A DNA stretch of 61,177 bases, counting the filler, from Hausera hauseri (taxonomy: Eukaryota): the NCBI GenBank assembly GCA_046269625.1. It is 9 parts of 9 records of this genome, joined end to end, with 100 filler letters (N's around TTAATTAATTAA, not from the genome) between each part and the next. Parts side by side here need not be neighbours in the genome. Positions count along the whole stretch, not along the records: positions 1 to 10,398 come from JBJURY010195525.1; 8 more parts are not named here. The stretch is one strand, 5' to 3'. The notes under the pieces were generated by a model. That model saw only the letters and a program-made list of their open reading frames with translations. It searched no databases and was not told the DNA's origin. Positions within the stretch are counted from its first letter, which is position 1, and each line of letters opens with the position of its first letter. The position numbers and the translations under genes are program-made. Below are positions 1,184-37,639 of the stretch, piece after piece.

Positions 1184-1678
1184 GCAGGCACACACACACT
1201 GCATGCCCCGCACCAACTCCCTCCTCAATCATTATTGGTATTATTTCATTTCCATGTCATCCTAATGAAATTCCACAGTCAGTACAAATGATTGGGCATT
1301 TCATAGAATACGTTTCAGTGGGTAGTAAAATGAACAAGTTCCGAAAGGCCGATCGACGTGATACTGCACAAGTACGGAAATTAACAATTTTTATCAATTT
1401 TCCTCACATGTTTATTATTGTTACATTAACAAAATAGCGGTATTGAAAATTCATGAAATGTACGGCACTTGTGCACTTTATGGTTCCCTCATGAGTTATG
1501 AATCAGCGATTATGAGTCACAATGTACAGAATCTGTGGTCGGAGTTTGCTGCTCGATTGTACGAACGACAGACTGCTCTCATTGACAAAATTTCCGAAAT
1601 ACTTTAAAAACTATTAAAATTATTTTTGTAAATAATGGGAGATAAAGAATAAGTGTACCAAATGAGCTGTGGCACATA

Positions 1679-4600
1679 ATGCTGAAGTGCCGTTTTCCAA
1701 TTAATTTTTCTACCGTAAACGACCACCAACAATTCAGATCCGCTGAAATAATTCCCGACGACACAGACCAATCAGAAGAAAACAACAATTTACCCGTCAA
1801 AATGTCCGATGAATCACAGAAAGACGATTGCATTGTCAGTTCGGATTCGGACGACGACGTTGAAATCATTCCACCAGCTTCATTTGTCAACGACATTACG
1901 TATCGTCAGTTGAAAGTCGCTGCCGTTATGAGTAAATGTCGAGTAGTTGTCAATCGTCTGACTGACAACGAAATCGCTCGTTATACGCATAAACCACTTG
2001 GTAAAAGACCAACAACAACAGCAAAAAAATCAAAACCAAACGTGAAAAGAACGCCTAAACAAACGGAAATAAAAGAAAAGCCAAAGAGAAAGAAAGAAAC
2101 GAAGAAAAAAGAAACGACGAGAAAAACAGCTGAAGGAAAACCGATCAAATTAGAAATCATCCTGACCGATAGTGATCAAGAATCAACGGAACAAACAGAA
2201 AATCTGACAACAGTTATCAAAGAAGATTGTGAGAAAGCGGATCCGATCAGAACCAGAAGTTTAATGAAAGAAATCAATAAAGCGCGGTTATTATCGGATC
2301 AAAGTGATCGTGAAAATTCTCCGACGAAAAAAACCAAAACAGAAACAACAGAAACGTCATTAGTCTACAAATCGGAGGCAGTTGAAAACGCGGAAGAAAC
2401 TGAAGGAGACAAAAACGAAAATGGAAAAAATAAAGATTCCGACACTCCAGTCGTTGATACGATAAATCTGGATTCCGATGAGAGTCTAATCGAACCACCA
2501 ATCAAACTGCAGCTCTGGGAACCATCGAAAGACGAATCGGAATCGAAGCAAAACAAATCAAAGAACAACAAAAATGTCAAATCTAAAGATGAACAATGTT
2601 GCGTGAAAACCAAAGACGATATTTTAACAAAACTCCGGAAGAAAATGAAGAATAAAGAAAAAGAGAAATTAAACCAAACAAAAAATGATAATGGGAAAAA
2701 GAAAATGTCAGTAGAAGTGTCACGGAACCAAGATTGGGTCAAAAGCAATACAGTGAAAGATGCAAAATGTTCTTATGATATTCTGTTCTCTAAGAAAATC
2801 GACATTTTTAGTTCGGGTTTCAAAATTTCCAAGAAAAATAGTTCGAAAGTCAGAGAAAGAGACGATTTTGATGATTGGTGTACGGATAATCGGACAGAAG
2901 TGAACAAGGAGTTAATATCGAAAGAACAAACGATGGATGGTGACAACGATTCCGCTGACAGATGGATCGGAGCTGATGATGATTCGGATGGCGATGATGA
3001 TGATAATAAGATGGCCGACGTTGTTGTTTCGAAAGTTGATCAAGTGTTTGGAAAAAAGAATGGTGAATCAGGAGAGAAGAAAGTTGACGATGATGATGAT
3101 GAAGATGATGCAAATGCCTGGTATAAAAGTGATAATGGTCCTGATGATTATCCATGCAATACGGGGACTGATGTAAACGAATCATGTAATGATGTGGGGA
3201 AGGTTGGATCTCCTGCTTCAGATTGTGAGTCTGATGATTTCGGTGCTTGGAATAAGGACGTAGGAAAGAATTCTGGTGATGAAACTGACAATGGGAATAA
3301 ACAGAAACAACAAGAAGACAATCGGAATGATAGGGATAAAAACTGTTGGGTGAAGAAAAACACGGGAAATTTCAGGCGTAATAAGTCGAATGGTGCCGAG
3401 GATGAAGGATCTTGGCGGAAAGGAAAAAATAATGAGGAAAATGACAATGAAGATGAGGAAGGTTCTTGGAATAATGTAGATGGACGTGATGGTGGTGAAT
3501 GGTCAGGGTCGTGTAATAGGGATAGAAATAACGAGGATGGAGATAAGAGTTATGGTAATGGTGATTCTTGGAGTAAGAATTATGAAGAAGAAGGTTGTGG
3601 ATCGTGGGGCAATAAAGATGACAGTAAGAATGAAGGAAGGTGTTGGAGAAGAGGTAATATGGGTAGGAATAACAATAGGCGACCGCGCGGGAGAAGGGGG
3701 AATAATTATCGAATGCGCGGCAGAGGTAGAGGAGAAGAACGTGGAGAAAATTCCAGATCGTATGGATTCAGTAGAGATGGGCAGATGGATAATGAAGATG
3801 GGAATCGTCGATGTAGGAATGACGATTTGGCGGGGTTTGATGATATCGATAACGACATTGACGTTATCACGGAATTGCCGCTGCTCGATGAAGGAAAGGA
3901 AAACGATTTTGAGTTGCAAGAAATGAAATTGCGTGGACCACGGAGATGGTACATGCGTGACATTGAGAATCCGTTCATTGGCGATGAAGTTCTTGGTGAT
4001 TCGTTGGTAACGAGTGGCAATAATGGCATTGCAATGATGGACACAAAGATAAACAGCAATAATAAGCAGCTCGATAATAAACCAAACACGGATGATAGTC
4101 AATTGAAATTTGCCGATCTTGTTGAACAGAACTTAATCAAACCATCAGAAAGTATCCGAGTGACATCTCCAGATATGGAGATTTTAGAGAGTTGGGTTGA
4201 TGCTAATCCACCTATCAACAGACAGAAGACGAAACCAAAAACCAACAGTAATTTACGATCGGATTACATTCTGCCACCACAAAAGGATTGCCGATACAAT
4301 TCTCGTCTTAACATGTATTTCGCATCTCCACCAAAGAACGGACTATCGAATTACGAACATTGGACTCCACCGAAAGGCAGTTGGAAAAGTTTATTGGCGA
4401 AGAACACAGAACCAATGTACGATGGGTCAGTGGAACAAGAAATATCGGTGAATCCGTATCACATTGATCCATACTTTGAGGAGTACTATAACAACCATGG
4501 TGGATACGGAATGGTGTCAGATGATCCTGGATATCCCGGTGGATCTATGGACTTTTATTTTGATTCTGGACAGCCATACTCTGATATGGATAACTACTAT

Positions 4601-4867
4601 TGGTATGATGAATCCATGGGTCCGTATCCGTGGGTCGATAACGGATATGGATCATGTGCTGCTGCACCAGATGTCATGTTTGATCCCATGTACAACATGA
4701 CATCATTTTATTCCACCAAGGCCCCTTATTTCAACATCAGCAACGTCCCATGGACAAGCAATCATCCAATTGTCAGAAAACAAGAATCTATTCCACCAAC
4801 ACCGGCATCCCCTGATCCAGAAGGTGCAACATCCAGCAATAGTAATAATAATAATAATCCCAATTAA
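1679..4867 (+). CDS. Intronless 1062-aa low-complexity, probably disordered protein (Lys-rich, acidic, Trp/Gly-rich, RG-rich, Tyr/Pro-rich C-terminus); the start may be the Met at 1802
   Basis: A 3.2-kb uninterrupted ORF in very AT-rich DNA, with higher GC and purine bias than its flanks. No recognisable globular domain. Confidence 0.75.
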   Translation: MLKCRFPINFSTVNDHQQFRSAEIIPDDTDQSEENNNLPVKMSDESQKDDCIVSSDSDDDVEIIPPASFVNDITYRQLKVAAVMSKCRVVVNRLTDNEIARYTHKPLGKRPTTTAKKSKPNVKRTPKQTEIKEKPKRKKETKKKETTRKTAEGKPIKLEIILTDSDQESTEQTENLTTVIKEDCEKADPIRTRSLMKEINKARLLSDQSDRENSPTKKTKTETTETSLVYKSEAVENAEETEGDKNENGKNKDSDTPVVDTINLDSDESLIEPPIKLQLWEPSKDESESKQNKSKNNKNVKSKDEQCCVKTKDDILTKLRKKMKNKEKEKLNQTKNDNGKKKMSVEVSRNQDWVKSNTVKDAKCSYDILFSKKIDIFSSGFKISKKNSSKVRERDDFDDWCTDNRTEVNKELISKEQTMDGDNDSADRWIGADDDSDGDDDDNKMADVVVSKVDQVFGKKNGESGEKKVDDDDDEDDANAWYKSDNGPDDYPCNTGTDVNESCNDVGKVGSPASDCESDDFGAWNKDVGKNSGDETDNGNKQKQQEDNRNDRDKNCWVKKNTGNFRRNKSNGAEDEGSWRKGKNNEENDNEDEEGSWNNVDGRDGGEWSGSCNRDRNNEDGDKSYGNGDSWSKNYEEEGCGSWGNKDDSKNEGRCWRRGNMGRNNNRRPRGRRGNNYRMRGRGRGEERGENSRSYGFSRDGQMDNEDGNRRCRNDDLAGFDDIDNDIDVITELPLLDEGKENDFELQEMKLRGPRRWYMRDIENPFIGDEVLGDSLVTSGNNGIAMMDTKINSNNKQLDNKPNTDDSQLKFADLVEQNLIKPSESIRVTSPDMEILESWVDANPPINRQKTKPKTNSNLRSDYILPPQKDCRYNSRLNMYFASPPKNGLSNYEHWTPPKGSWKSLLAKNTEPMYDGSVEQEISVNPYHIDPYFEEYYNNHGGYGMVSDDPGYPGGSMDFYFDSGQPYSDMDNYYWYDESMGPYPWVDNGYGSCAAAPDVMFDPMYNMTSFYSTKAPYFNISNVPWTSNHPIVRKQESIPPTPASPDPEGATSSNSNNNNNPN

Positions 4868-5329
4868 TGAATCTCGGTGTTTGCATGTACATACATAATA
4901 CTGTTCCCCTTCTCGTCGTCCTCCTCATTTCGAATAATCTGATGTATATTTTTGTATATTTGGCTTAGATGTCGTATTTTATTCGTGATTCGATTTCTTT
5001 GCAGCTTCTGATGTTTTGATGTTTTTTATTCTTCTGTTTCGGGCCCTCTTTCTATCTATCTCTATCTATATATATATCTCGGGTGGCCCAACATCTAATT
5101 TATCGCTGACACGCTGATGTTTTAAATACAACTTGATTTTTTCTTTGGCTTTCATTTGTTCCCTTTTCGGATTATTTGTATTGGAATAGACCGGGTGGGT
5201 AAATTGACCATAAAACCAGCCTTATTCAAAATCCAAGTATTGAAGAACATTGTTCAAGAATTTTAAATGGAAATTAATATTCATAGCAAGCATAAATAAT
5301 TTGACGCAATTGATATTCAGTGAATCTAA

Positions 5330-6010
5330 CGAGGAAACGAATTTTATTGTAAATCTGTTTTTTTGTAACAAATAGTCAGAGAGACGTGCAAAATATAATG
5401 ATGATTAATAATATGAGAAAATTGTTGAACATTTCTTTTGTGGAATTTGTTAAAATTTATAATTCAATGAAGGTGGGGAATATTGTACAAGTACCATAAA
5501 TGAGGAATTTTACTGTAAATACGGGACATTTTTATAACAAATAGCCAAAGACACATGCAAAATATAATGATAATTATTAATATGAAAATACTTTTTGCTG
5601 AGCCTTTAAATGTAACAGCAATTGGCACTTGTTCAAATTTGCCTCACTATGTTTAGAAATTTCCAACTTTAACAACCTTTTTTTGAGTGAATGTTTTTTA
5701 ATATTCGATTTACAAAGTTTCCTTCATGTACTGACAAAATAAAAAATATCCATCGAATATAGTTCTGTGGTCAGTCATGCAATTGTGACGGAACGTCAAG
5801 AAAACATTAAAAATTGAATATTAAAAAAAACCAACTCGAGAAAAAAATTTGAACAAGTGCGAATTGTTTCTACATTTGAAGGCTTCAAATGCATTATTTT
5901 GGCTTTCTCGGCGAACATTTCCTCATATTATTAACCATCATTATATTTTGCACATCTCTCTGACTATTTCTTATAAAGAACCCAGATTTACAGTAAAATT
6001 CGTTTCATCA
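5330..6010. repeat. Fold-back / nested MITE-like inverted repeat
   Basis: Segments 5330-5420 and 5500-5640 (e.g. AAATAGTCAGAGAGACGTGCAAAATATAATGATG...GGCACTTGTTCAAATTT) match the reverse complement of 5845-6010. Confidence 0.7.
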
Positions 6011-8641
6011 TAAGCACTTTAAATATCCGTAATTTAATATAACCGTATTTGGTTTACCGTCAAAATCGCCGATCAAAGCGCTTCGATGAAAAGAGCCAAT
6101 TACATAATCACAGTGAAAAATTTAATACTATTCTTGTAATAAAATCGAAATTTGAAATGTATTTCCTGATTATTATTTCAAAATTATTTTATCGATTTTA
6201 ATAAAATGCCTGAATTTACTGAAAACGTATTTGAGCGGGGAATATCGAATAAGTACCAAAATGTCAGCAAATGTAGTTTAGCCCCCATGGACTAACACAG
6301 CATTACAACACTTGGGAAAAATTTCATGGTTGTCTATAAATTACTTTCTCGATGAAAGAGCAATGCTGACTTTTGTTGTTTGTTTTTTTACGCAATGTTC
6401 CAAACCGAATTAATGTGAGTTTTCATCAAATACGACAAGAATGTTGCATGTTTATCGAATGATCAAAGTTTCTGGTCAGATTCCACGAAAGAGAATTTTC
6501 GAAAGATTTAAAACGATGGTAGCATCGGAAATGATCATGAAGGTAAACAAATCATGTTGCATTTAGATGAGTATAGTACTTCTAAATATTGTATTTAAAA
6601 ATATTATTTCATTGCCTTTAACTGAATGTTCCAATGCTTAAATATCGCAACTGTTATGAAATCCATCTGTATCGACGTGAGACGTGAACTAATTAGGATG
6701 ACACAATCAAATATAGTCATTGTGCACTTTTACACACAAGACAAAAACAGTGATTATACAAAATATTGCAGCTGGTTTTATGACATCGATTTTTTTCTGA
6801 TTATTTATACATATAGATTTTCAGGTAAGACTAGTTATGTGGAATAAATCGGTTTTAATGAAATAAGTAGTTTATCAAAGATATATTTATTTATCGATTA
6901 TATTTTATAATGAATACAAATTATTTTAAGACCATTATTCAACTTCATTACACAAATAAGTTTTTATAAACAAAACCTGTATATAAATAATAAAAAAATC
7001 TAGGTCACGAAGTAATCTGTTATTAGGAAGGTGCAATATTTTTCATAATCAATGTAGGATCAAAATTTAAAATGATAAAATGTTAAAATTAGAAAAATAT
7101 TTATTTTTAGTAAAAAATACTTTTATTTTGTTTTCAGTAAAAAGTGACTATTATATCTTGGATAAGCAAGTTCCATAGATAAAATAAAACAATTGCACAA
7201 CTTTATTATTCAAATCACGTTTATAATTGTTTGAAATAACGTTTGGGTTTCTGAATAAACCACATATTTTACAGGAATTAACGGTTTTCTAAATAATAAA
7301 ACTAAACCATAAAAATGTTCGAATATTTGTAAAAAAACTTCAGAAAAGTAGGTTACAAAATAAATGAAACATAATCAAAGTTAAAAAAATAAAAATTCTA
7401 AACAAACATTTGCGGTTCTTTATTTTGTAACACTGAAATTAAATAATAATTAATCGATAGATAAAAATAATAATAATTACTTCGGCTTCATTAAATGATT
7501 CACAGCAGTCTTTCTAAATAAAGAAGTAAAATGAACGTTCCGTTTATATATTGGGAACTACATGCGCAATTATTACGTAATATTACATATTAAGACTAGA
7601 ATAATTATTACTTAAAAAATCCTGAGTGATTCAAGCAAGAGCACTGTGGTGCCCACATTGACTCACCCAAAAATATCAGAAAATATTTATCAATTATATA
7701 GTGATTTTCGTTCTTTGAATATTCAGCATATGTGTGGAAATTAAATAAAAACTTTTATGACTTGTAATTTTCTCGATGATAATCAAATTATTCATATTGG
7801 ATTTATTATAAATGTATTCAATGTCCAGTCAAATTCTGTCAAAAAATATTATCGAATTAACCGAAACAAATTTGGATATTTTAAAGCTTACAAAACATGA
7901 TCGAAACAAAATGACATTTTCACAAGCACCCTACTGATAATCAGGTTTATACAAGTACTGATTAATAATATGAAAAATATTTTTGTAAAGAAAGCAACGA
8001 GTATGCAATAAGACTTTCTAAATGTTACGTCCTTTTGCACTTATTCAATTGCCTCAAAACATGCAAATTTTCGTTTCTTTTTTCAATTAATATTTTACTA
8101 AAGTCAAATTTCCAGTTAGTCATTCAAAGTACAATGCATTCGTCTAATTATCAGTTACATCAGTAATATACAATATATAAAAGCCACACCAAAATAATTA
8201 AAGACTTACCGTAAAGTTGCACTGAAATAAATACAATAATCAAAAAGGTCAACTTCAATAGAAGAAAAATGCTTAATATTATGTCAAAAGTTACTTATTA
8301 ATAATACAACTAATATTCTTATGACTATGAACAAATATTTTAAAATATAAGAAAGTTTGATTCAGTACTAAAATAAAATCAATATTATAAAAATGGATTT
8401 GTATTAAATTTTATTCTTATCAGTAAAAACACTTGAGATTTTGATCACTAACTACGGCCGATAGACACACTAACACGGTGAGGTCGACAACAGCACACAA
8501 ACGCGATCGATAAGATAAACGTGAAACTTTTACGTATTGTTGATTAAATTGATCGCCTATAGTAAAACACACATAATATATCTCACGATCAATTTTCTTA
8601 CAAAGGTTATAGACGAATTAATTTATTCACAGTTACTATGC

Positions 8642-8677
8642 TATTTAAACTGCAACTTAAAATAATTTTGATCACTT
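8642..8677 (+). promoter_or_regulatory. Putative Pol II core promoter of the Rep-like gene
   Basis: TATTTAAA at 8642, an Inr-like TCACTT 30 bp downstream at 8672, and AAAATG start at 8685. Confidence 0.4.
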
Positions 8678-8684
8678 CATTAAA

Positions 8685-10072
8685 ATGGAACCATCGACAA
8701 GCAATATGAATTACGACCGAAATGCAAACAGCGACGATTTCATACAGGAATGCATTAACGAATTTAAGGCAAAACAGAAAATTAAAATGCGTGAAAAGGT
8801 AACATTAATTTTTAAATTCATTTTACATAATATTTACAGTATAAAAATAACATAACAATTTCATCCGACCCTAATGCTCCTACTATGTTTCCTACAGTCA
8901 ATGCTGAAACACAAGCTCTGCAAAATCGAACCCCCTTTGATATTTATCAACTCGCAGAACCCACAAATAACAATACTTTCAGGCATTTTGCCGGGGTAAT
9001 GAATCTTACTAATACAACCGATATTCTTGACGAAATAACACCACAAATCAGGAAACTATATGAAATTAACGCTTACGTCAGATATCAAGAAGAAATATCA
9101 CCTTCCGGCTTTAGACACCTTCATGTCTTGATATATACCCCTCAGCCAAAAAGGCTATCATCAATGAGGGAAAGAACGGGTATCCAATATCTTCTGGCAA
9201 CAAGGGCGGAAATTTTCCCCCTTTATAAATATCATTTTAAACCCAAAATGGATAATGTATTCATACTGCAAGTGGGTAAACCTCCTATAGATGTGCACAG
9301 GGAAACCTCAACGAAAAAAGCACTCTATAAGGAGTTTGACGACGCCCCGAACGCAAAGGAGGCGATGGCTATAATGAAGGAGGGTGACCGGGCGGAATAC
9401 ATAACCCGGCAACGCCTTCTAACAAATTACATTACCAAAAAATTCCAAGCCCCTATCGAAATCGACCAATCATTAACGTTCACTATTCCGAGGATCAAAT
9501 TTTGCCCCTAGCATGGGGTAAATACAGCTATATTGTTTGGGAGCAGCAATATAGGAAAAACTACGTTCGCGCTCGCCCACGGAAAAAATCCGCTTCTTCT
9601 CCACTCCGTTCACGACACCCCGAACGAGTGGAATGAGACAAATGATTTAGTGATTTACGATGACGTGGGCTTTGCCGGTGCAAGCCCTGACACATTCTTA
9701 AATATTTTGCAGGTTATTATTGTTATTATTATTATTATCAAATAATCCCTATATTAGAGCAACCACAAGCAAGACAACCGATCGATCAGAGGGTTGTACA
9801 AATCAGTCTTGATCCCCAGCAGAGTGCCAATAATCTTTACGTACAACGCCGAGCAGAATTTTTGGCCGAGAAAAATGGATATCACGCAAAAAGAGGCGTG
9901 TATTAAACGTTGTTTAATATACAATCTCGACAACTTCATGTTGTACCGGTCAACTCAGCCCAGAACAAATTTTTTGACTCAGAATATTATAAATGTGGCC
10001 GATTTGGAACTTAATGATCTTTTGCCGCATGGTAGTATTGTACATGAGGACCACATAGATATTGGCCAATAA
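8685..10072 (+). pseudogene. rep: Endogenous CRESS-DNA-virus-like Rep (HUH endonuclease + SF3 helicase); exons 8685-8798, 8840-9712, 9758-10072; one in-frame TAG at 9509-9511
   Basis: Motif II YQEEISPSGFRHLHVLI (HUH), motif III YHFK, motif I-like RHFAGVMN, Walker A GSSNIGKT, Walker B VIYDD, motif C IIFTYN, Arg-finger-like ACIKR. Two GT-AG introns (41 and 45 bp, both phase 0) restore a single reading frame. Confidence 0.85.
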
Positions 10073-10073
10073 A
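10068..10073 (+). terminator. AATAAA polyadenylation signal overlapping the Rep stop codon
   Basis: CAATAAA contains the TAA stop and is followed by T/GT-rich sequence. Confidence 0.45.
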
Positions 10074-10398
10074 CTTTTCTTACCGTGTTCTTTATTTTCA
10101 ATGGTTGTTATTTTTAGTTTATTGATTTTATATAAATGTCATCCTCAATCGAACAAACTGATATCATGCCGCCAGCTAAATGTTTCCACATAAAATTTGG
10201 TCAATCAAAAATGAATTATTACACACAAGCAATATCACAATATCTGGCAATATCACACTTAGTTTAGCTTTACAAGAATAGCTGAATGACAAACGAAAAA
10301 GAAAGCTATATTATTAAAAATATAATTTCCGTAAATGGCCTCACTAAATATATTCACTTTAATTTACTCTATATAGTTTAATATCTAATGCAAACACT

Positions 10399-10498
10399 NN
10401 NNNNNNNNNNNNNNNNNNNNNNNNNNNNNNNNNNNNNNNNNNTTAATTAATTAANNNNNNNNNNNNNNNNNNNNNNNNNNNNNNNNNNNNNNNNNNNN
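10399..10498. other. Artificial contig linker
   Basis: N44-TTAATTAATTAA-N44, with stops in all six frames. Confidence 0.97.
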
Positions 10499-10867: not shown

Positions 10868-13800
10868 ACAAATCTATAAGCGAGGCAGTACGTGGTGATA
10901 TGGCAATATTGTTCATTATTTCCAAAATCACTTCAACGAATGGTGAGTTTTTAATTGCTCTCCTCAAATAATTGATTAATTATAAATGTGCAAACTTTAC
11001 AGTGAATGTTTGGCTCAAATCCACGAGCCGGAAAATTGCCACAGTTTTATGAAGAAGTACTTTGGCCATATGTACAACAGGGTTCAGTATTATATATGCC
11101 CTACATGTGAGGTAGTGTGTTAAACCAATTATGAAGATTTTTACAATGTCCATAAATAGCACTTGATTTTTTTCACAAAGTCGAAAAACAAATTTTCAGT
11201 ACCAATATGCCAATAACGACTTTCGTGCCAAAGGAAAATCAAAGATGCAATTCATATGTGTATTGCACATGTGCAATACACAACCTTCAGAATTAGCACA
11301 ATAAAATAAGGACCTATTATGGACACAAATTCAATAGGATTATCTATTATATCTGCCCAGGATGTTAGGCCGTATGTGATAGAAAATACATACAGTTTCA
11401 TAAAGATCACAAACATCATTTGACTCACTTCTATTCAAAGTCAAAGAAGATCATTTTAATGAACATAAGCCAGTTGCAGCAGCACAGAATGCAGTATCAC
11501 ACGCAGTATATGCACATGCAGGACTAAAACGCGCATCTGACACATTAGGCGCATCAGGCCCATCAGGCGCATCAGGCCCAGCGGCCCCACAACAAAGCCA
11601 AAGACAGCGGTCAGTTAATTCTGCAGCATTAAAGAGAAAAGTCCGCAAATAAGTCATTCATGTAGCTGGTCAAACAACCATCAAGGAATTCCTGGAGTAC
11701 GAAGAGGAAGAAACAAGAGGGATCCTCCAGGACAACATAGCTGAGCTCAAGGCCCTCAAGGCCTAAGTCAATGTTGATGGCGCAGAGTCCAAAAGTGCCT
11801 TCAAGACCAGAAATAGACCCATATTGGAAAACACCAGTATAGCAGAATGGATGCACAAGGCCCACGGGAAGCTGATCCACGAGGCTGAGAAGAGCCAGAA
11901 TAAGAAGTGTGGATGGACTCTGGCAACCATCAAGAGATTGCTTGTGTATGTTCACAATTACTGTCCTATGCGGGTTAGTTCATATATTCAGCTTCCGGAA
12001 TAAATCGGCAATACAAAAGCATGCATCAATGTCCTTAATAATGACAGCAAGTGTTTCATGTATGGCATTTTACCTAAACTCGTAGGGGATTAAAACATGC
12101 AGCAGATCGAGTTTGACTATGTAATGATCTGCAGTACAACTATGGCTTCCAACGTATCACATTCCCGCCATCCATAGATGAAGTCAATTAGTTCAGTCGA
12201 ATCAACATTATATCCATAAACATCATTGGATTGGATGATGAAGACAAATTCTGTCGCCTGCAGATATGTGATGCTGAATTGGAAGATCATAGGGATCTGC
12301 TCCTACTAGGCGATGGAGAAAAGAAACATTACGTATAGATAAAGAATTTTGAACGTCTAGTAATATCCAAAATTACGAATCACCATGGAAAATTTGAGAT
12401 CTGTAAGCGATGCCTGTCTCGTTTTAGCGGTGATATTGCAGTGGACAGGCTTACAGAGCATAAGATGTTCTGCAGCATCAATTACTGTATCAGTTTAGAA
12501 TTCCCCAAGTAGAACTATATTAAATTCAAGGAGTTCGAGAAGAAGCTCAAGGTCCAAATTGTCGTCTATTGCGACTTTGAAGCTATTCTCAGACCAATTC
12601 AGAGTTGCAACCCCAGTGCCCAACATAGCAAAGCAACAGCTTACCAATATCATGAACTCTCATCGTATTGCATGTACGCCAAAGGACTGGACAGTGAAAC
12701 ATATCTATTTAGAGGCCCAGGTGCAGCAGTACATTTCATGAAGAGACATGAAGACATGGCTCATAAGCTTGAAAACATGCTTCGACAGCATAACGATAAT
12801 ATGAGCATGTCGTGGAAACAAGAAGAAGAATGGCGCAATGTCGCAACATGTTACTTATGCGACAATTCCTTTACCAAGGAAAATCATAAAGTCAAGGATC
12901 ACTGCGATTTTACAGGTGCATATCGACGGTCAGCATGCAACAACTTCAATCTGCGTTGCAAAACATGCACATATGTGTCTGTAGTGTTTCACAATTTCAG
13001 TAGCTATGATACCCACTTCATTGTTCGGGAACTGGGAAAAATTAAAGGAAACATTGATGTGATCCCTAATAGTGAGGAAAAATACATCACATTTGGGAGC
13101 ATGTTGGGAAAATCAGACTTCGCTTCATAGACAACTTTTGTTTCATGTCATCTTTACTGGTCAGTTTGGTGAAGAACCTCCCTGCAGAAGAACTCAAGGA
13201 GACGAAGCGGTCCTTTCTTACTGCATTTGACCTACTAAATAGGAAAGACATGTTTTCCTATGACTACATAACTTCATGGAAAACATTGGATGAGACGTCA
13301 CTGCCGGACAAGAAGGACTTTTACAATATCCTCTCTGATTCGATATAAGTGATGCTGATTACCATCATCCTCAGAAAGTCTGGCGTGCATTCCAATGCCG
13401 AGAAATGGGGGAATACAGTGATATTTACCTCATTACGCTCGTGCTTCCTCTGACAGATGTCTTTAAGAGTTTCAGGGATGTTACAATGAAAAGCCATGCT
13501 TTAGATCCGGCTCATTTCTTTACGGCTCCATGGATAAGTTGGGAAGCAATGCTGCGTTATACTGATATTAGGCTGCAGATCATTAAGGATTACGACATGA
13601 TCCTTATGATCGAGAGAGGCATTATAGGCGGAATATGCCAGGCCAATAATAGGTATAATGACGCCAATAACAAGTTTATAGTCGAATACGACTCAACAAA
13701 GGAATCCTCATATATATCATACCTGAATGCCAACAACTTGTATGGATGGACAATGAGCGCCCCATTGCCACAAGGTAACTTCAAATGGGTCAGGAATCCT

Positions 13801-14898
13801 GAAAACATCCCTATATTGGACCTGAATCCCACTGGAGATACGGGACACATACTGGAGGTAGAAATGGAATATCCGGCGTCTATCTACATAAAGCATTAAC
13901 AGCTGCCTTTCTTCCCTGAGAGCAGGCCTCCACCCCATGGAAAGCAAAGAAAGCTGATCTGTCATCTGGGTAATAGGGAGAGGTATGTAGTTCACTACAC
14001 CAATCTCCAGCAGGCAGTTAGACATGGACTTCGTATTTCTAAGATGCATACAGCCCTGCAGTATTGAATGATGCATAGATCTCAATACGAAGCTGTGGTC
14101 TAATGCCAAGAACGACTTTGACGGAGATCAATTCAAACTATATAACAACATTGTTTTTGGCAAGACCATTGATAATATCCGTAACAGGATCAACATTGGG
14201 CTAGTATGTAACTGGAAGCGGGCAAAGAAGCTTATTGACAAGCCTATTTTCCATAGCAGCACCATATGTACTGAGAACTTGGTAGGATTCCCTATGCTGA
14301 AAACAGCATTGGTATTCAACAAGCCCATATATGTGGGTATTGCAATTCTCGACTTGTCAAAGACCCTAATGTATAAATTTCATTAAGACACCATGGTCCC
14401 CACATTCAAGTCCATGCAGCTGATGTATATGGATACTGATAGTTTTATCCATCAGATCCGTACAGATGATATTTATAAGGACTTTGCCCAGTTGGCTCAA
14501 CACATGGATACGTCTGACTATCCAAAGGATCATCCCAACTATTCAATTGCAACAAGAAAGTCCTAGAGAAATTCAAAGACGAGGTGAATGGAGCAATTAT
14601 TTCGAAATTTGTAGCTCTTAGGTCCAAAATGTATGCAACTGACGTACGTGGCCATATCAAAAAAGGAGTCAAGGGCGTTCAAAGGGCTACATTGGCCAAG
14701 AAGATCAGTTTTGAGGACTATGCGAGAGTTCTGCAGGAGCAAACTCACATCACATAGGAAATGAGAAGGATCCTATCTAGGAATCATAACATCCAAACAG
14801 TAACACTGCATAAGAAAAGCCTAGATTGGATAGATGACAAGAAGCAGATCCTGAACTCTGGAATCCATACACTACCTCACGGAAATGTGGCATTGTAA
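10868..14898 (+). pseudogene. Polinton/Maverick (adintovirus-like) protein-primed DNA polymerase B, with many stops and frameshifts; 5' boundary approximate
   Basis: GWTL..SSYIQLP..KACINV; endoVII-like KVKDHCDFTGAYR; ExoII FHNFSSYDTHFI; ERGIIGG; YLNANNLYGWTMS; KLYNNIVFGKT; YMDTDS (14426-14443); FVALRSKMY; KGV. TAA at 14896, AATAAA at about 14928. Confidence 0.9.
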
Positions 14899-15048
14899 AT
14901 ATTGTTATTCATTGTTATTCTTTGTTTAATAAATATTGTATAGAAATATCGTGTTGTTTTCTTGATCAAGTAACGTGGGTTATAGGATAAGGCCAAGTGA
15001 AACTAAGGAACTAATATACAGGTTAAGATCAACTAATTTCATAATACA

Positions 15049-27427: not shown

Positions 27428-27791
27428 AAATGCATTTTCTGCAAACGCCCGTACTGATTTCATTAAATGATCCTGTGTCTCTATGTGCACCCAAGTACAA
27501 CTTTCATGTAAAACGGCTTTCGGGTAAAAATTGGAATAAACTTTCTGATTCTCTAAATCAATTAAACGTTGATTTAAAGTTAAACAAAACGACTGTGGAA
27601 CAACAATCTGTCGATGTACCAGCGCAGAATACGAAATGTTTGATTGTATCGGTCGCGAAATATCTTATGTATCCGATGGCGATGATGGTTTAAAATGTCG
27701 ACTGAATATTGAGTTGCAAGGATGCAAGGAAAAAGCCGGTATTAAAAGCCTAATTTGGCGTATAGCTGAAGTACATTTTAATTATCAATAA
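27428..27791 (+). pseudogene. 3' part of an unknown frameshifted gene (Cys pairs; C-terminus LKCRLNIELQGCKEKAGIKSLIWRIAEVHFNYQ*)
   Basis: Coding-like frames; the stop overlaps AATAAA. Compact virus-like spacing to the next TATA box and the dUTPase. Confidence 0.35.
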
Positions 27792-27882
27792 AGTTTGTTG
27801 TTGTTTTACCGTCCTTCTTCTTTCATTAACCCAATTAACGAGTATAAATATACGTGTAATTTTAAAAATAGTCATAAGAATA

Positions 27883-28352
27883 ATGATAATAAATGAGGTA
27901 AAGATTTTCTTAACAGTCGAAAGTGCCTTTGTACCGAGACGTGTTACATCAAACAGTGCAGGCTATGATGTGTTTTCCAATGTCAATACGACAATTTCGG
28001 ACAACACAATCAAACGTATAACAACTGGAATTCGATTGGCGATTCCACCAGGTTACTACGGTCAACTTTTATCGAAAAGCGGATTGGCAAAGTTTGGACT
28101 GACGGTTGTGGGCGGCGTTACTGACTCCTATTTTTGTGGTGAAATTAAGGTGTTGCTAAAAACCAATCCGAGGAACCGTATGCTTTTTCCAAAGGCAATG
28201 CAATCGCACAAATCGTTTCTCTTCGCTGTGAAGAGGCGGAATTCAGTGTAATGTCACCGGAACAATGGGAACTGTTTTGTGTCAATAAATCAACCCGAAC
28301 TGAACGCAAAGAATTAGGTTTTAATGATATGGACAAAACCATCTATGTTTAA
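27883..28352 (+). pseudogene. dut: Trimeric dUTPase with one frameshift at about 28160
   Basis: Motifs I SAGYD, II SKSG, III GGVTDSYFCGEI, IV KGNAIAQI and V-like ERKELGF. TATAAATA at 27844. Intronless. Confidence 0.88.
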
Positions 28353-35989: not shown

Positions 35990-37321
35990 ACGTGCGATCA
36001 ACCGCAAACGGTAAAACCTACCAGGCAGGCGGCTCCTTTGCATGTAGAAGAAGAGTATTTATGGTTATATCTTGATCCGCGCAACAACGTACAAGGGCCA
36101 TTCCATGACAGTCAGATGTTCCAGTGGTGGTCACAGGGCATCTATTTCCAAAATTCTCTGCTCATGAAGCGGAAGTGTGACGCAGATTTTTCCACATTAC
36201 GTAAAATCATTAACGTTCCAAGACATACCTAATTGAACACTTACACAGAGGATTACAGTAAGCGGTTTAACGGCGTTCCCTTTAACCGGAAAGACATTCG
36301 GGTACCGCCGCTTACCGAATCATTATCCACTGTATCCCCCACTGGATTCGTACGGCCGAGTGTGTACAGCTGCGCAGTTCCTTTTACACCACAAACGAGT
36401 TTGGCTCAGGCACCAATGACTGACAACACCGGGATGCTGATGCAGCTATTGTCTGGTCAGCAGGCTAAGTCACCGGAGGAGTTAGCCAAACTCCTGCGAA
36501 AAATGTCTGTACAGAACAGGTCATCCGAACAGCAGCCACATAACATCGGCACTCAAATGCAAAATGGTGTCGACCTTTATGCCCACAATCCAGTCTCGAG
36601 CAGTCTTTCAACGTTTGTAAAACCGAACTACAGTAGCCATCAGCAGCCGCCGCCGATGTACATTTCAGATTCAAAGGCGTCGAATCGGCTGCCGAACATT
36701 GTAAAGTCCGACCGGTACAGTCGTCCTTCATGGGATTTGCCATCGTCTTCACAAGGAGGACTTGTTGACAGTGTGTGGACGAACAGCAGCAGTAGTAAGG
36801 AACATATGATGTGCGTTCGTGGTGTTGTCGGTGGCGGCCTTGATAGTGTTTCCTGCAACAGGAATACATCAGTATGGTCACGCAGTACGTCTGATCCATC
36901 CGTGGCAATGCCGGTGAACAGCAGTGCTGTCATTCTCTCATCGATGTTGCACAGTAGCGGCTGTCAAAAACAGCAGTTATCCACCGATATGCATCAGTGC
37001 AACCCACTGCAGGATACGTGGGACAGTCTCGATCCAGCCATTATCAAGGTGATACCACCAGGGAATCAACATGAACACAAGGATCGGAAATTGTCTGACG
37101 ATAGGGACTTAATGTCTCCTCGATCTGCAGGTACTGATGCCGCCAGTCGTTCTCATTCCGATAACGCTAAACATCCGTGGGCTGACCTTGTTAGGAAAAA
37201 CAGCAGTTCCAATGGCCAGAGGTCCAAATCTAGCCGCAGCAGCGACCATGAAATCACCACCAATCATTCGACATCTCCGAATCAGACGAAACTCTCTGTC
37301 ACATCAAACAGCAGTGATGAG
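35990..37321 (+). CDS. Internal exons of a GYF-domain protein (GIGYF/PERQ-like); exons about 35990-36200 and 36249-37321
   Basis: GYF consensus WLYLDPRNNVQGPFHDSQMFQWWSQGIYF..L.MKR. A 48-bp GT-AG intron (36201-36248) gives FSTLQDYSKRFNGVPF, followed by a Ser/Pro/Gln-rich tail; GT donor at 37322. Confidence 0.8.
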
Positions 37322-37639
37322 GTTGGTTTACGTTGATAATTGCGTTTATTTTTCTATCTAAATTGACATGATGATTACAACTTTCTTAAACTGTTATTTT
37401 TTATAAATTTCACTTGACAAATATATATATATATATCTTGTTCGGAAAAAAACTACGCTCAGACTGATTAAAATGAAAAGTATTTCATTGGCTGAATAAT
37501 GTTTCGATAAATGCACCAATGTTTGTGACAAATAAATGTAAAGCGCTGTTAGTGAATTGCCATTTATTTTACGCTTTAATTGAAAGTTAACTGCTTGTAA
37601 CATGGGAAAGCATTTCAGTGAATATGTTCGTGGTGCCAT

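What the first reader, a model, noticed from the sequence alone, without database searches (positions are those of the whole stretch)
8685..10072. CRESS-virus Rep gene built like a host gene, with two mini-introns, TATA/Inr and polyA signal
Seen: HUH and SF3 helicase motifs in three exons joined by phase-0 GT-AG introns of 41 bp (8799-8839) and 45 bp (9713-9757, containing a stop). Splicing gives 433 codons, with an N-terminal extension of about 85 aa before motif I. No capsid ORF or stem-loop origin is visible nearby. Established: mastre- and genomovirus Reps can carry one intron, but most CRESS Reps have none. Inference: either a domesticated Rep or a capsid-less rolling-circle element distinct from Helitrons, which use a PIF1/SF1 helicase. 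Intron sizes match the 48-bp intron in the host GYF gene.
Basis: partly seen in the sequence, partly recalled or inferred. Interest (0 to 1): 0.78.

Follow-up and report, generated by a model that had tools for sequence, protein, structure and literature searches.

The report
Broken two-intron viral Rep gene fossil
An animal chromosome carries a virus-type DNA-replication (Rep) gene that is split by two short, likely spliced introns and cut by a premature stop codon; it is most likely a dead copy left by an undescribed small circular-DNA virus, a known kind of genomic fossil, rather than a gene the host has adopted.

Summary
A contig from a public run carries the same stop.

The protein is a CRESS-type HUH + SF3 Rep with all catalytic motifs present. 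It is only 25-35% identical to most of its best relatives and sits on a long branch. Intron 2 is confirmed by homology; exon 1 and intron 1 rest on composition and a chance control.

'Built like a host gene' does not discriminate. A free circular relative fetched here (L042) also has two short GT-AG introns in Rep, and spliced Reps are published. Diverged Rep-like contigs and a second, truncated form of the 5' end exist in the runs. No capsid, origin or element ends were found, but the contig ends 326 nt downstream.

Best reading (0.6): a broken endogenous viral Rep of an undescribed lineage. Unexplained: 5 of 7 differences between the two copies are synonymous, which keeps a capsid-less element or an adopted gene open. 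Interest 0.35.

The parts
8413..8684 (+). Upstream region; its left edge (8413-8421) is a junction where contigs of both public runs leave or enter the window sequence
   Evidence: Loose ends at 8412 (X2) and 8413 (X1), table 7
8642..8649 (+). TATA-like word, 30 nt before an Inr-like word at 8672-8677
   Evidence: TATA-like words occur 3.3 times per kb in the flank, so not significant alone
8685..8798 (+). Predicted exon 1 (38 codons, no homology to Reps)
   Evidence: Open, ATG start, GC 0.36; chance control 0 of 56; no profile match
8799..8839 (+). Predicted intron 1, 41 nt, GT-AG, phase 0
   Evidence: GC 0.15; canonical donor and acceptor; no RNA support available
8840..9712 (+). Exon 2: HUH endonuclease, oligomerisation domain, Walker A and B; interrupted by a stop
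   Evidence: model from alignment A1 has pLDDT 64-94 per block over residues 41-290
8893..8898 (+). Junction: contigs of both runs follow the window to 8898 and then continue with the same unrelated sequence (a truncated second form of the 5' part)
   Evidence: tables 7 and 8
8981..8998 (+). Motif I (RHFAGV)
9116..9124 (+). Motif II (HLH)
   Evidence: H93 invariant in 24 of 24 rows
9230..9241 (+). Motif III (YxxK), catalytic tyrosine
   Evidence: Y131 invariant in 24 of 24 rows
9509..9511 (+). In-frame premature stop (TAG), codon 262 of the model, 10 codons before Walker A
   Evidence: not among the 5 differences of X1's contig over the gene
9539..9562 (+). Walker A (GSSNIGKT)
9659..9664 (+). 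Walker B (DD)
9713..9757 (+). Intron 2, 45 nt, GT-AG, phase 0, two in-frame stops if unspliced
   Evidence: Gap in 23 of 23 homologues; spacing test; score test
9758..10072 (+). Exon 3: motif C (Asn at 9845-9847), Arg finger (9908-9910), C-terminal tail
   Evidence: exon alone matches profile positions 246-305, E 4e-16 in that small search
10068..10073 (+). AATAAA overlapping the terminal stop
   Evidence: 3.9 per kb in the flank, not significant alone

Best explanation
This is a CRESS-type Rep gene with two short introns and a premature stop, most likely a dead chromosomal copy left by an undescribed small circular ssDNA virus that infected this animal's lineage. Inferred mechanism: the virus was transcribed and spliced by the host, so its Rep carried host-sized introns, a TATA box and a polyA signal; pieces of its genome entered the germ line more than once, leaving several diverged Rep-like copies; this copy then acquired the stop. 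If transcribed and spliced, it would give a 261-residue nuclease-plus-oligomerisation fragment without helicase, or be removed by nonsense-mediated decay (the stop lies 201 nt before intron 2), so it would not drive rolling-circle replication. Shown: Rep identity, motifs, intron 2, the stop in two copies, diverged look-alikes in run X1. Inferred: intron 1, viral origin of the introns, repeated integration, lack of function.
For: (1) 171 representatives match at E <= 0.001, best E 4e-17 at 30% identity. The cluster of P0004 holds a named CRESS-DNA-virus Rep. 17 of the top 30 hits carry Viral_Rep or Gemini_AL1_M at E <= 0.01. Best fold matches are CRESS Reps (the model was built on that alignment, so this is not independent). 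(2) Of 18 viral contigs fetched with the profile, 14 have terminal repeats and 9 a stem-loop nonanucleotide; 4 of 12 second ORFs tested match a capsid family. (3) L042 is circular, has a stem-loop, and its Rep has two GT-AG introns of 83 and 57 nt with motif III in the middle exon, so two-intron Reps exist in free circles. Spliced Reps are published for 36 cruciviruses (PMC7468197) and for arthropod-associated CRESS genomes (PMC6186406). (4) The stop is shared by the window and X1. (5) 21 of 39 records laid from X1 are under 90% alike; four loose ends on the Rep read in frame as diverged Rep with mostly silent changes, one of them a base out of frame (read by hand). Families of circovirus-like fossils with stops are published for an isopod (20 copies, PMC4231630) and many eukaryotes (PMC3198968). 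(6) Both runs hold a form truncated at 8898, as expected of dispensable DNA.
Against: No close viral relative: none at E <= 1e-30 among 1.84 billion representatives, terminal branch 1.48 substitutions per site, so no virus with these introns is shown. L042's introns are at other positions and L042 is distant. No origin stem-loop or capsid remnant on the 3.8 kb upstream. 5 of 7 differences between the window and X1 in coding sequence are synonymous, against 21-27% expected (P 0.006-0.019; one test, chosen after seeing the data, 7 sites). A fossil dead since insertion should not show this. Only one lesion in 1302 coding bases, with every catalytic motif intact. The diverged X1 records could be other host loci or free viruses in the sample; this was not resolved.
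Confidence: 0.6

Rival explanations
1. A broken copy of a capsid-less, host-resident mobile element family mobilised by an HUH + SF3 Rep (a helicase-keeping counterpart of Replitrons), with a left end near 8413-8421 and a truncated derivative sharing that end.
For: X2's contig follows the flank to 8412 and goes on into other DNA (could be an empty site), X1 has a contig entering at 8413 from other DNA, and 8413-8898 occurs with a second right-hand neighbour in both runs. Diverged look-alikes keep the protein sequence. Long branch and no close virus. Intact motifs. No capsid on the available contig.
Against: No terminal direct or inverted repeat longer than 9 nt between the two ends, and no 60-nt window near either end folds better than z -1.8. 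The only long near-identical record listed over the gene in X1 is one contig (33 rows not shown), so no recent burst is seen. The junctions fit a disrupted allele equally well. The right end may lie beyond the gap at 10399.
Confidence: 0.2
2. An adopted (domesticated) Rep gene or small gene family, with this copy recently lost, read through, or working as a truncated 261-residue DNA-nicking and binding protein.
For: Synonymous excess between two copies that share the same flanks (5 of 7). Well-spaced promoter words, an extra 5' exon beyond chance, intron sizes like the host GYF intron. X2's truncated copy has 4 listed differences in 116 nt upstream and none listed in exon 1 or intron 1 (one of its 7 differences is not listed). 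Conserved, expressed endogenous Reps are published (PMC3198968).
Against: The premature stop is in both copies. No RNA structure around the stop beats shuffles (z -0.35 to -1.7). A truncated form occurs in both runs. Neither half alone shows significant constraint (3 of 5 and 2 of 2 synonymous). Non-synonymous divergence (2 in about 900 sites) is not clearly below that of the non-coding flanks.
Confidence: 0.17
3. Assembly artefact or a free virus joined into the host contig.
For: The scaffold is heavily gapped and the gene lies 326 nt from a contig end.
Against: X1's contigs overlap in series from the repeat-rich flank into the gene (8140-8450, 8421-8898, 8869-10181), and X2 holds the flank and the 5' part.
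Confidence: 0.03

Closest known systems
Endogenous CRESS-DNA viral elements of invertebrates (Armadillidium circovirus-like EVEs, PMC4231630; survey in PMC3198968)
   Same: Rep-like sequence in animal chromosomal DNA, several diverged look-alikes, in-frame stop, no capsid beside it.
   Different: Two short introns and an extra 5' exon; only 25-35% identity to most relatives against 46-78% similarity reported for the isopod EVEs. The word 'intron' does not occur in the main text of either paper.
Unclassified CRESS and crucivirus Reps with the GKTxFALxH Walker A (Periparus ater CRESS-DNA-virus sp. QTE03536.1; giant-panda- and red-panda-associated Reps)
   Same: Domain order, all catalytic motifs, fold, spacing from motif III to Walker A (109 against 102-122).
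   Different: Mean 25% identity in the core, long branch, three extra residues between Walker B and motif C; the fetched relatives are mostly small circles with a stem-loop and a second large ORF.
Intron-bearing Reps of mastre-, genomo- and cruciviruses, and contig L042
   Same: Short AT-rich GT-AG introns in Rep; L042 has two.
   Different: Intron positions differ: here one in the N-terminal extension and one between Walker B and motif C; in L042 both flank motif III. The mastre- and genomovirus intron position is recalled, not tested.
Replitrons (PMC10288648)
   Same: Eukaryotic chromosomal Y1 HUH gene related to CRESS Reps; the truncated product here would have the same nuclease-plus-oligomerisation layout.
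   Different: Replitrons have HUQ and no helicase, short direct repeats at the ends, and occur in plants, algae and protists. This gene has HUH, a full SF3 half, and no such ends were found.
Helitrons
   Same: Chromosomal HUH-encoding gene in a eukaryote.
   Different: Helitrons have a Y2 Rep fused to an SF1B helicase (PMC10288648); this has Y1 and SF3.
Planarian PEVE/PIVE and the Tuber melanosporum geminivirus-like transposon (as described in PMC3198968)
   Same: Capsid-poor ssDNA-virus-like elements with Rep-like genes, integrated in many copies.
   Different: They have terminal inverted repeats and further ORFs (a second helicase or transposases); none seen here. No sequence comparison with them could be run.

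Membership tests
CRESS-type Rep protein | HUH endonuclease with motifs I-III and one catalytic Tyr | tested here: met
   nuclease domain matches Vientovirus and circovirus Rep structures (TMt 0.65-0.69)
CRESS-type Rep protein | Fused SF3 helicase with Walker A, Walker B, motif C and Arg finger | tested here: met
   (sequence present, but downstream of the stop)
CRESS-type Rep protein | One open reading frame after splicing | tested here: not met
   TAG at 9509-9511
Complete CRESS-DNA virus genome | Capsid gene | tested here: inconclusive
   No ORF over 82 codons other than Rep in 4900-10398, but the contig ends 326 nt after Rep
Complete CRESS-DNA virus genome | Nonanucleotide in a stem-loop origin | tested here: not met
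   12 nonamer-like words below 16 kb, longest stem 4 bp; no strong hairpin. DNA beyond the gap was not seen.
A named Cressdnaviricota family | Rep phylogeny inside a family clade | tested here: inconclusive
   Long branch, weak placement (support 0.65), no named reference set in the tree
Endogenous viral element | Viral gene contiguous with host chromosomal DNA | tested here: met
   Overlapping contigs from flank to gene in X1; flank and 5' part in X2
Endogenous viral element | Exogenous virus from which it descends | tested here: inconclusive
   Only distant viral relatives found
Replitrons | HUQ motif and no helicase | tested here: not met
   HLH and SF3 half present; definition
Replitrons | Short direct repeats at or near the termini | tested here: inconclusive
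   None over 9 nt between 8381-8700 and 10061-10398; right end unknown
Helitrons | Y2 Rep fused to an SF1B (PIF1) helicase | tested here: not met
   Y1 and SF3 motifs; no Helitron or PIF1 Pfam hit
Domesticated viral gene | Fixed, intact orthologue under purifying selection | tested here: inconclusive
   Stop in both copies and a truncated form against; 5 of 7 synonymous differences for
Domesticated viral gene | Spliced expression in host tissue | not testable with these tools
   Only contig runs were available

The most novel reading that the evidence does not exclude
An animal genome harbours a long-resident, capsid-less family of intron-bearing HUH + SF3 Rep genes with no close viral relative: either a third kind of eukaryotic rolling-circle transposon (neither Helitron nor Replitron) or a host-adopted nuclease/helicase family, of which this locus is a recently broken or truncated member still showing purifying selection.
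Probability: 0.3. Interest if true: 0.7.

Novelty: new member of a known kind. Interest (0 to 1): 0.35.

Why it matters
On the best reading it extends the fossil record of CRESS viruses: a deeply divergent Rep lineage in an animal, with two introns at positions not seen in the relatives fetched here. It also warns that introns, TATA and polyA signals in a Rep are not signs of domestication. If the family is instead capsid-less and mobile, it would be a eukaryotic transposon run by a complete CRESS-type Rep, a link between ssDNA viruses and Replitrons; I did not find such an element in the listings of searches. If adopted, it would be a rare host gene derived from a catalytically intact Rep.

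Tried and rejected
No whole genome is held for this window, so copy number, shared ends and orthologous sites could not be computed.

Searches that found nothing useful: Pfam and PHROGs give the gene no Rep hit (AAA_24 E 0.06). Word-index protein search found 0 hits with the gene and 1 with the alignment. PDB sequences 0, plasmids 0. Viral contigs gave 0 with the gene, 5 Walker-A-only matches that I set aside, and 0 with a family-specific DNA pattern. The metagenome scan used a pattern ending in HF, which the window's own Walker A region does not fit, so it could not find the closest kin. The single-sequence fold was useless (pLDDT 33). The Atlas gave no result for the window's protein; the result for homologue P0153 (Cressdnaviricota Rep clusters) is that homologue's.

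Runs: no RNA holder was listed; this says nothing about expression. X2 has no listed contig on 8899-10356, and X1's contig depths step from about 29 to 15 at 8898; neither is used as evidence, since holes and depths in contig runs prove nothing. No joint skipping either intron was listed, but 9709-9748 was skipped as a repeat.

Rejected: an alternative genetic code; a hidden intron over the stop; a read-through structure; assembly error at the stop; linkage to the polymerase fragments at 12-15 kb or the GYF gene, which lie beyond gaps. The tree left out the 20 hits under 280 residues and held no named family references, so no family is assigned. Of 43 fetched relatives only L042 was examined base by base for introns; L030 and L034 match the helicase half only and were not examined. 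The PEVE paper is not held; what I say of it comes from PMC3198968.

Full report
SETTING. The window is a gapped scaffold of short contigs. The gene lies on the first contig (1-10398), 326 nt from its end. The host is an animal by its content: a GYF-domain gene, gypsy-type retroelements and a dUTPase, standard genetic code. No call named its group. No whole genome is held.

OBSERVATION. Exons 8685-8798, 8840-9712 and 9758-10072 and introns of 41 and 45 nt are as described; the introns are sharp AT-rich dips (GC 0.15 against 0.36-0.42). The codon count of 433 is right, but codon 262 (9509-9511) is TAG, ten codons before Walker A. A 1313-nt contig of public run X1 spans the gene with five differences, none at the stop, so the stop exists in a second copy. 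TAG is not a sense codon in four long ORFs of the window, and the ten frame-keeping introns that could span the stop are all exon-like in composition. No RNA structure around the stop beats shuffles. TATA, Inr-like and polyA words are present and sensibly spaced, but common in this DNA.

IDENTITY. Pfam does not recognise the protein. A full HMMER scan of 1.84 billion representatives gave 171 hits at E <= 0.001, 18 at E <= 1e-10 and none at 1e-30; the best is 30% identical. Aligned with 23 of them, motifs I-III, Walker A and B, motif C and the Arg finger all fall in place. One hit's cluster holds a named CRESS-DNA-virus Rep, and 17 of the top 30 carry Viral_Rep or Gemini_AL1_M. A model built on that alignment (mean pLDDT 73) matches Vientovirus and circovirus Rep structures and predicted CRESS and crucivirus Reps. 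In a tree of 132 sequences (20 hits under 280 residues left out) the gene sits on a terminal branch of 1.48 substitutions per site with weak placement. It is a CRESS-type Rep with no close relative on record; no family can be assigned.

INTRONS. Intron 2 is an insertion relative to all 23 aligned homologues. The Walker B to motif C spacing is 43 in 118 of 122 scorable homologues, 61 unspliced and 46 spliced here, and a profile built without the gene scores it 186 bits without the intron against 177 with it. Gene callers miss intron-split genes, so the protein hits are biased towards intronless ones. Exon 1 has no homology but passes a chance control (0 of 56). The 85-residue extension is at the top of the range in homologues (1-80).

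DO INTRONS MEAN DOMESTICATION? No. Of 18 viral contigs fetched with the profile, 14 have terminal repeats and 9 a stem-loop nonanucleotide; 4 of 12 second ORFs tested match capsid families. Among 25 metagenome loci, L042 is a 2.67-kb circle with a TAGTATTAC stem-loop whose Rep is split by two GT-AG introns of 83 and 57 nt, with motif III in the middle exon; its second ORF has no Pfam hit. Published: 36 crucivirus genomes with putatively spliced Reps (PMC7468197, passages) and intron-interrupted Reps in arthropod-associated CRESS genomes (PMC6186406, passages). That such viruses use TATA boxes and polyA signals is recalled knowledge.

OTHER COPIES. Of 39 X1 records laid on 8230-10398, 21 are under 90% alike. 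Loose ends at 9356 and 9358 (three contigs each), 9860 and 9913 read by hand as in-frame, diverged Rep sequence with mostly silent changes; the one at 9860 is a base out of frame. These may be other chromosomal copies or free viruses in the sample. Both runs hold a contig that follows the window to 8898 and continues with the same unrelated sequence. X2's flank contig leaves the window sequence at 8412 and an X1 contig enters it at 8413. This fits either a disrupted allele or an element with a left end near 8413 plus a truncated second copy. No terminal repeats, hairpins or origin were found.

AGAINST THE FOSSIL READING. Five of seven coding differences between the window and X1 are synonymous; 21-27% would be expected (P 0.006-0.019). 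The test is post hoc and rests on seven sites, and neither side of the stop is significant alone. Still, two copies that share flanks and a stop should diverge neutrally, and I cannot explain the excess; older variation reshuffled by recombination, a useful truncated product or read-through would each do so. There is also only one lesion in 1302 coding bases, and no origin or capsid remnant upstream.

HOW IT MOST LIKELY WORKS. An intact Rep of this kind nicks a stem-loop origin with its tyrosine and unwinds DNA as a hexameric SF3 helicase (PMC8780604, passages). A virus adapted to this host's spliceosome would carry host-sized introns. Its DNA likely entered the germ line more than once, as with the 20 circovirus-like copies in an isopod (PMC4231630, passages) and the many degraded Reps in eukaryotes (PMC3198968, passages and supplement search hits). 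This copy would give at most a 261-residue nuclease-plus-oligomerisation fragment, or be degraded by nonsense-mediated decay (rule recalled). Odds: viral fossil 0.60, capsid-less mobile element 0.20, adopted gene 0.17, artefact 0.03.

COMPARISON. It is not a Helitron (Y2 + SF1B) or a Replitron (HUQ, no helicase), by the definitions in PMC10288648 (passages). It works like a CRESS Rep but fails membership as a complete virus (no open frame, no origin, capsid not seen). Nine paper searches (listings only except where stated) showed no report of a two-intron endogenous Rep in an animal or of an HUH + SF3 eukaryotic transposon without a second transposase; the library lacks most subscription papers and Repbase, and only one paper's supplements were searched. 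Earlier unchecked notes of this scan on other genomes describe intron-bearing endogenous Reps; none matched this sequence and I did not test them.

VERDICT. Observation partly confirmed; interpretation partly supported. A new, deeply divergent member of a known kind. Interest 0.35; the most novel open reading (resident capsid-less or adopted Rep family) has probability 0.3 and would deserve 0.7.

Noticed in passing
L042:302-1494: Free circular CRESS-like genome (2.67 kb, TAGTATTAC stem-loop) whose Rep has two GT-AG introns, 568-650 and 785-841, flanking motif III.
   Followed up: yes
L035:912-3283: Two convergent Rep-family ORFs at the end of a 58-kb AT-rich contig; both lack the HUH histidines and no capsid-sized ORF lies in the 5.8 kb held. 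Looks like another chromosomal, inactivated Rep pair.
   Followed up: partly
window 8893-8898: The unrelated sequence that both runs show after 8898 follows a TA-CAGT string, which resembles a Tc1/mariner end at its TA target (recalled motif).
   Followed up: no
window 11980-14900: Decayed DNA polymerase B-like gene resembling that of Maverick/Polinton elements (motifs recalled; Pfam gave only Endonuclease_7 at E 0.02), on the next contig.
   Followed up: no
window 1646-4867: 1073-codon intronless ORF of low complexity (acidic, Gly/Arg-rich and Tyr/Pro-rich tracts) with no Pfam or PHROG hit; nearest gene upstream of the Rep.
   Followed up: partly
window 5326-6014 and 7617-8204: Nested inverted repeats (up to 64 nt, 91%) and very high-copy repeat fragments, MITE-like, between that ORF and the Rep.
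   Followed up: no
window 27766-28350: dUTPase gene with a frameshift among short ORFs of unknown kind, possibly a remnant of a large DNA virus or element.
   Followed up: no
window 36011-37339: Host GYF-domain gene with a 48-nt intron; homologue P0162 is 88% identical in the domain and 40% elsewhere.
   Followed up: yes
window 55651-61019: Gypsy-type pol with one in-frame stop, followed by extra ORFs, including a 484-codon ORF without a Pfam hit that looks exonuclease-like by recalled motifs.
   Followed up: no
window 38130-52400: About 14 kb of TTCG/TTC-type simple repeat, which accounts for the many long spurious ORFs there.
   Followed up: no
L030 and L034: GC-rich loci where the profile matches only the helicase half of Rep; may be further intron-split Reps.
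   Followed up: no
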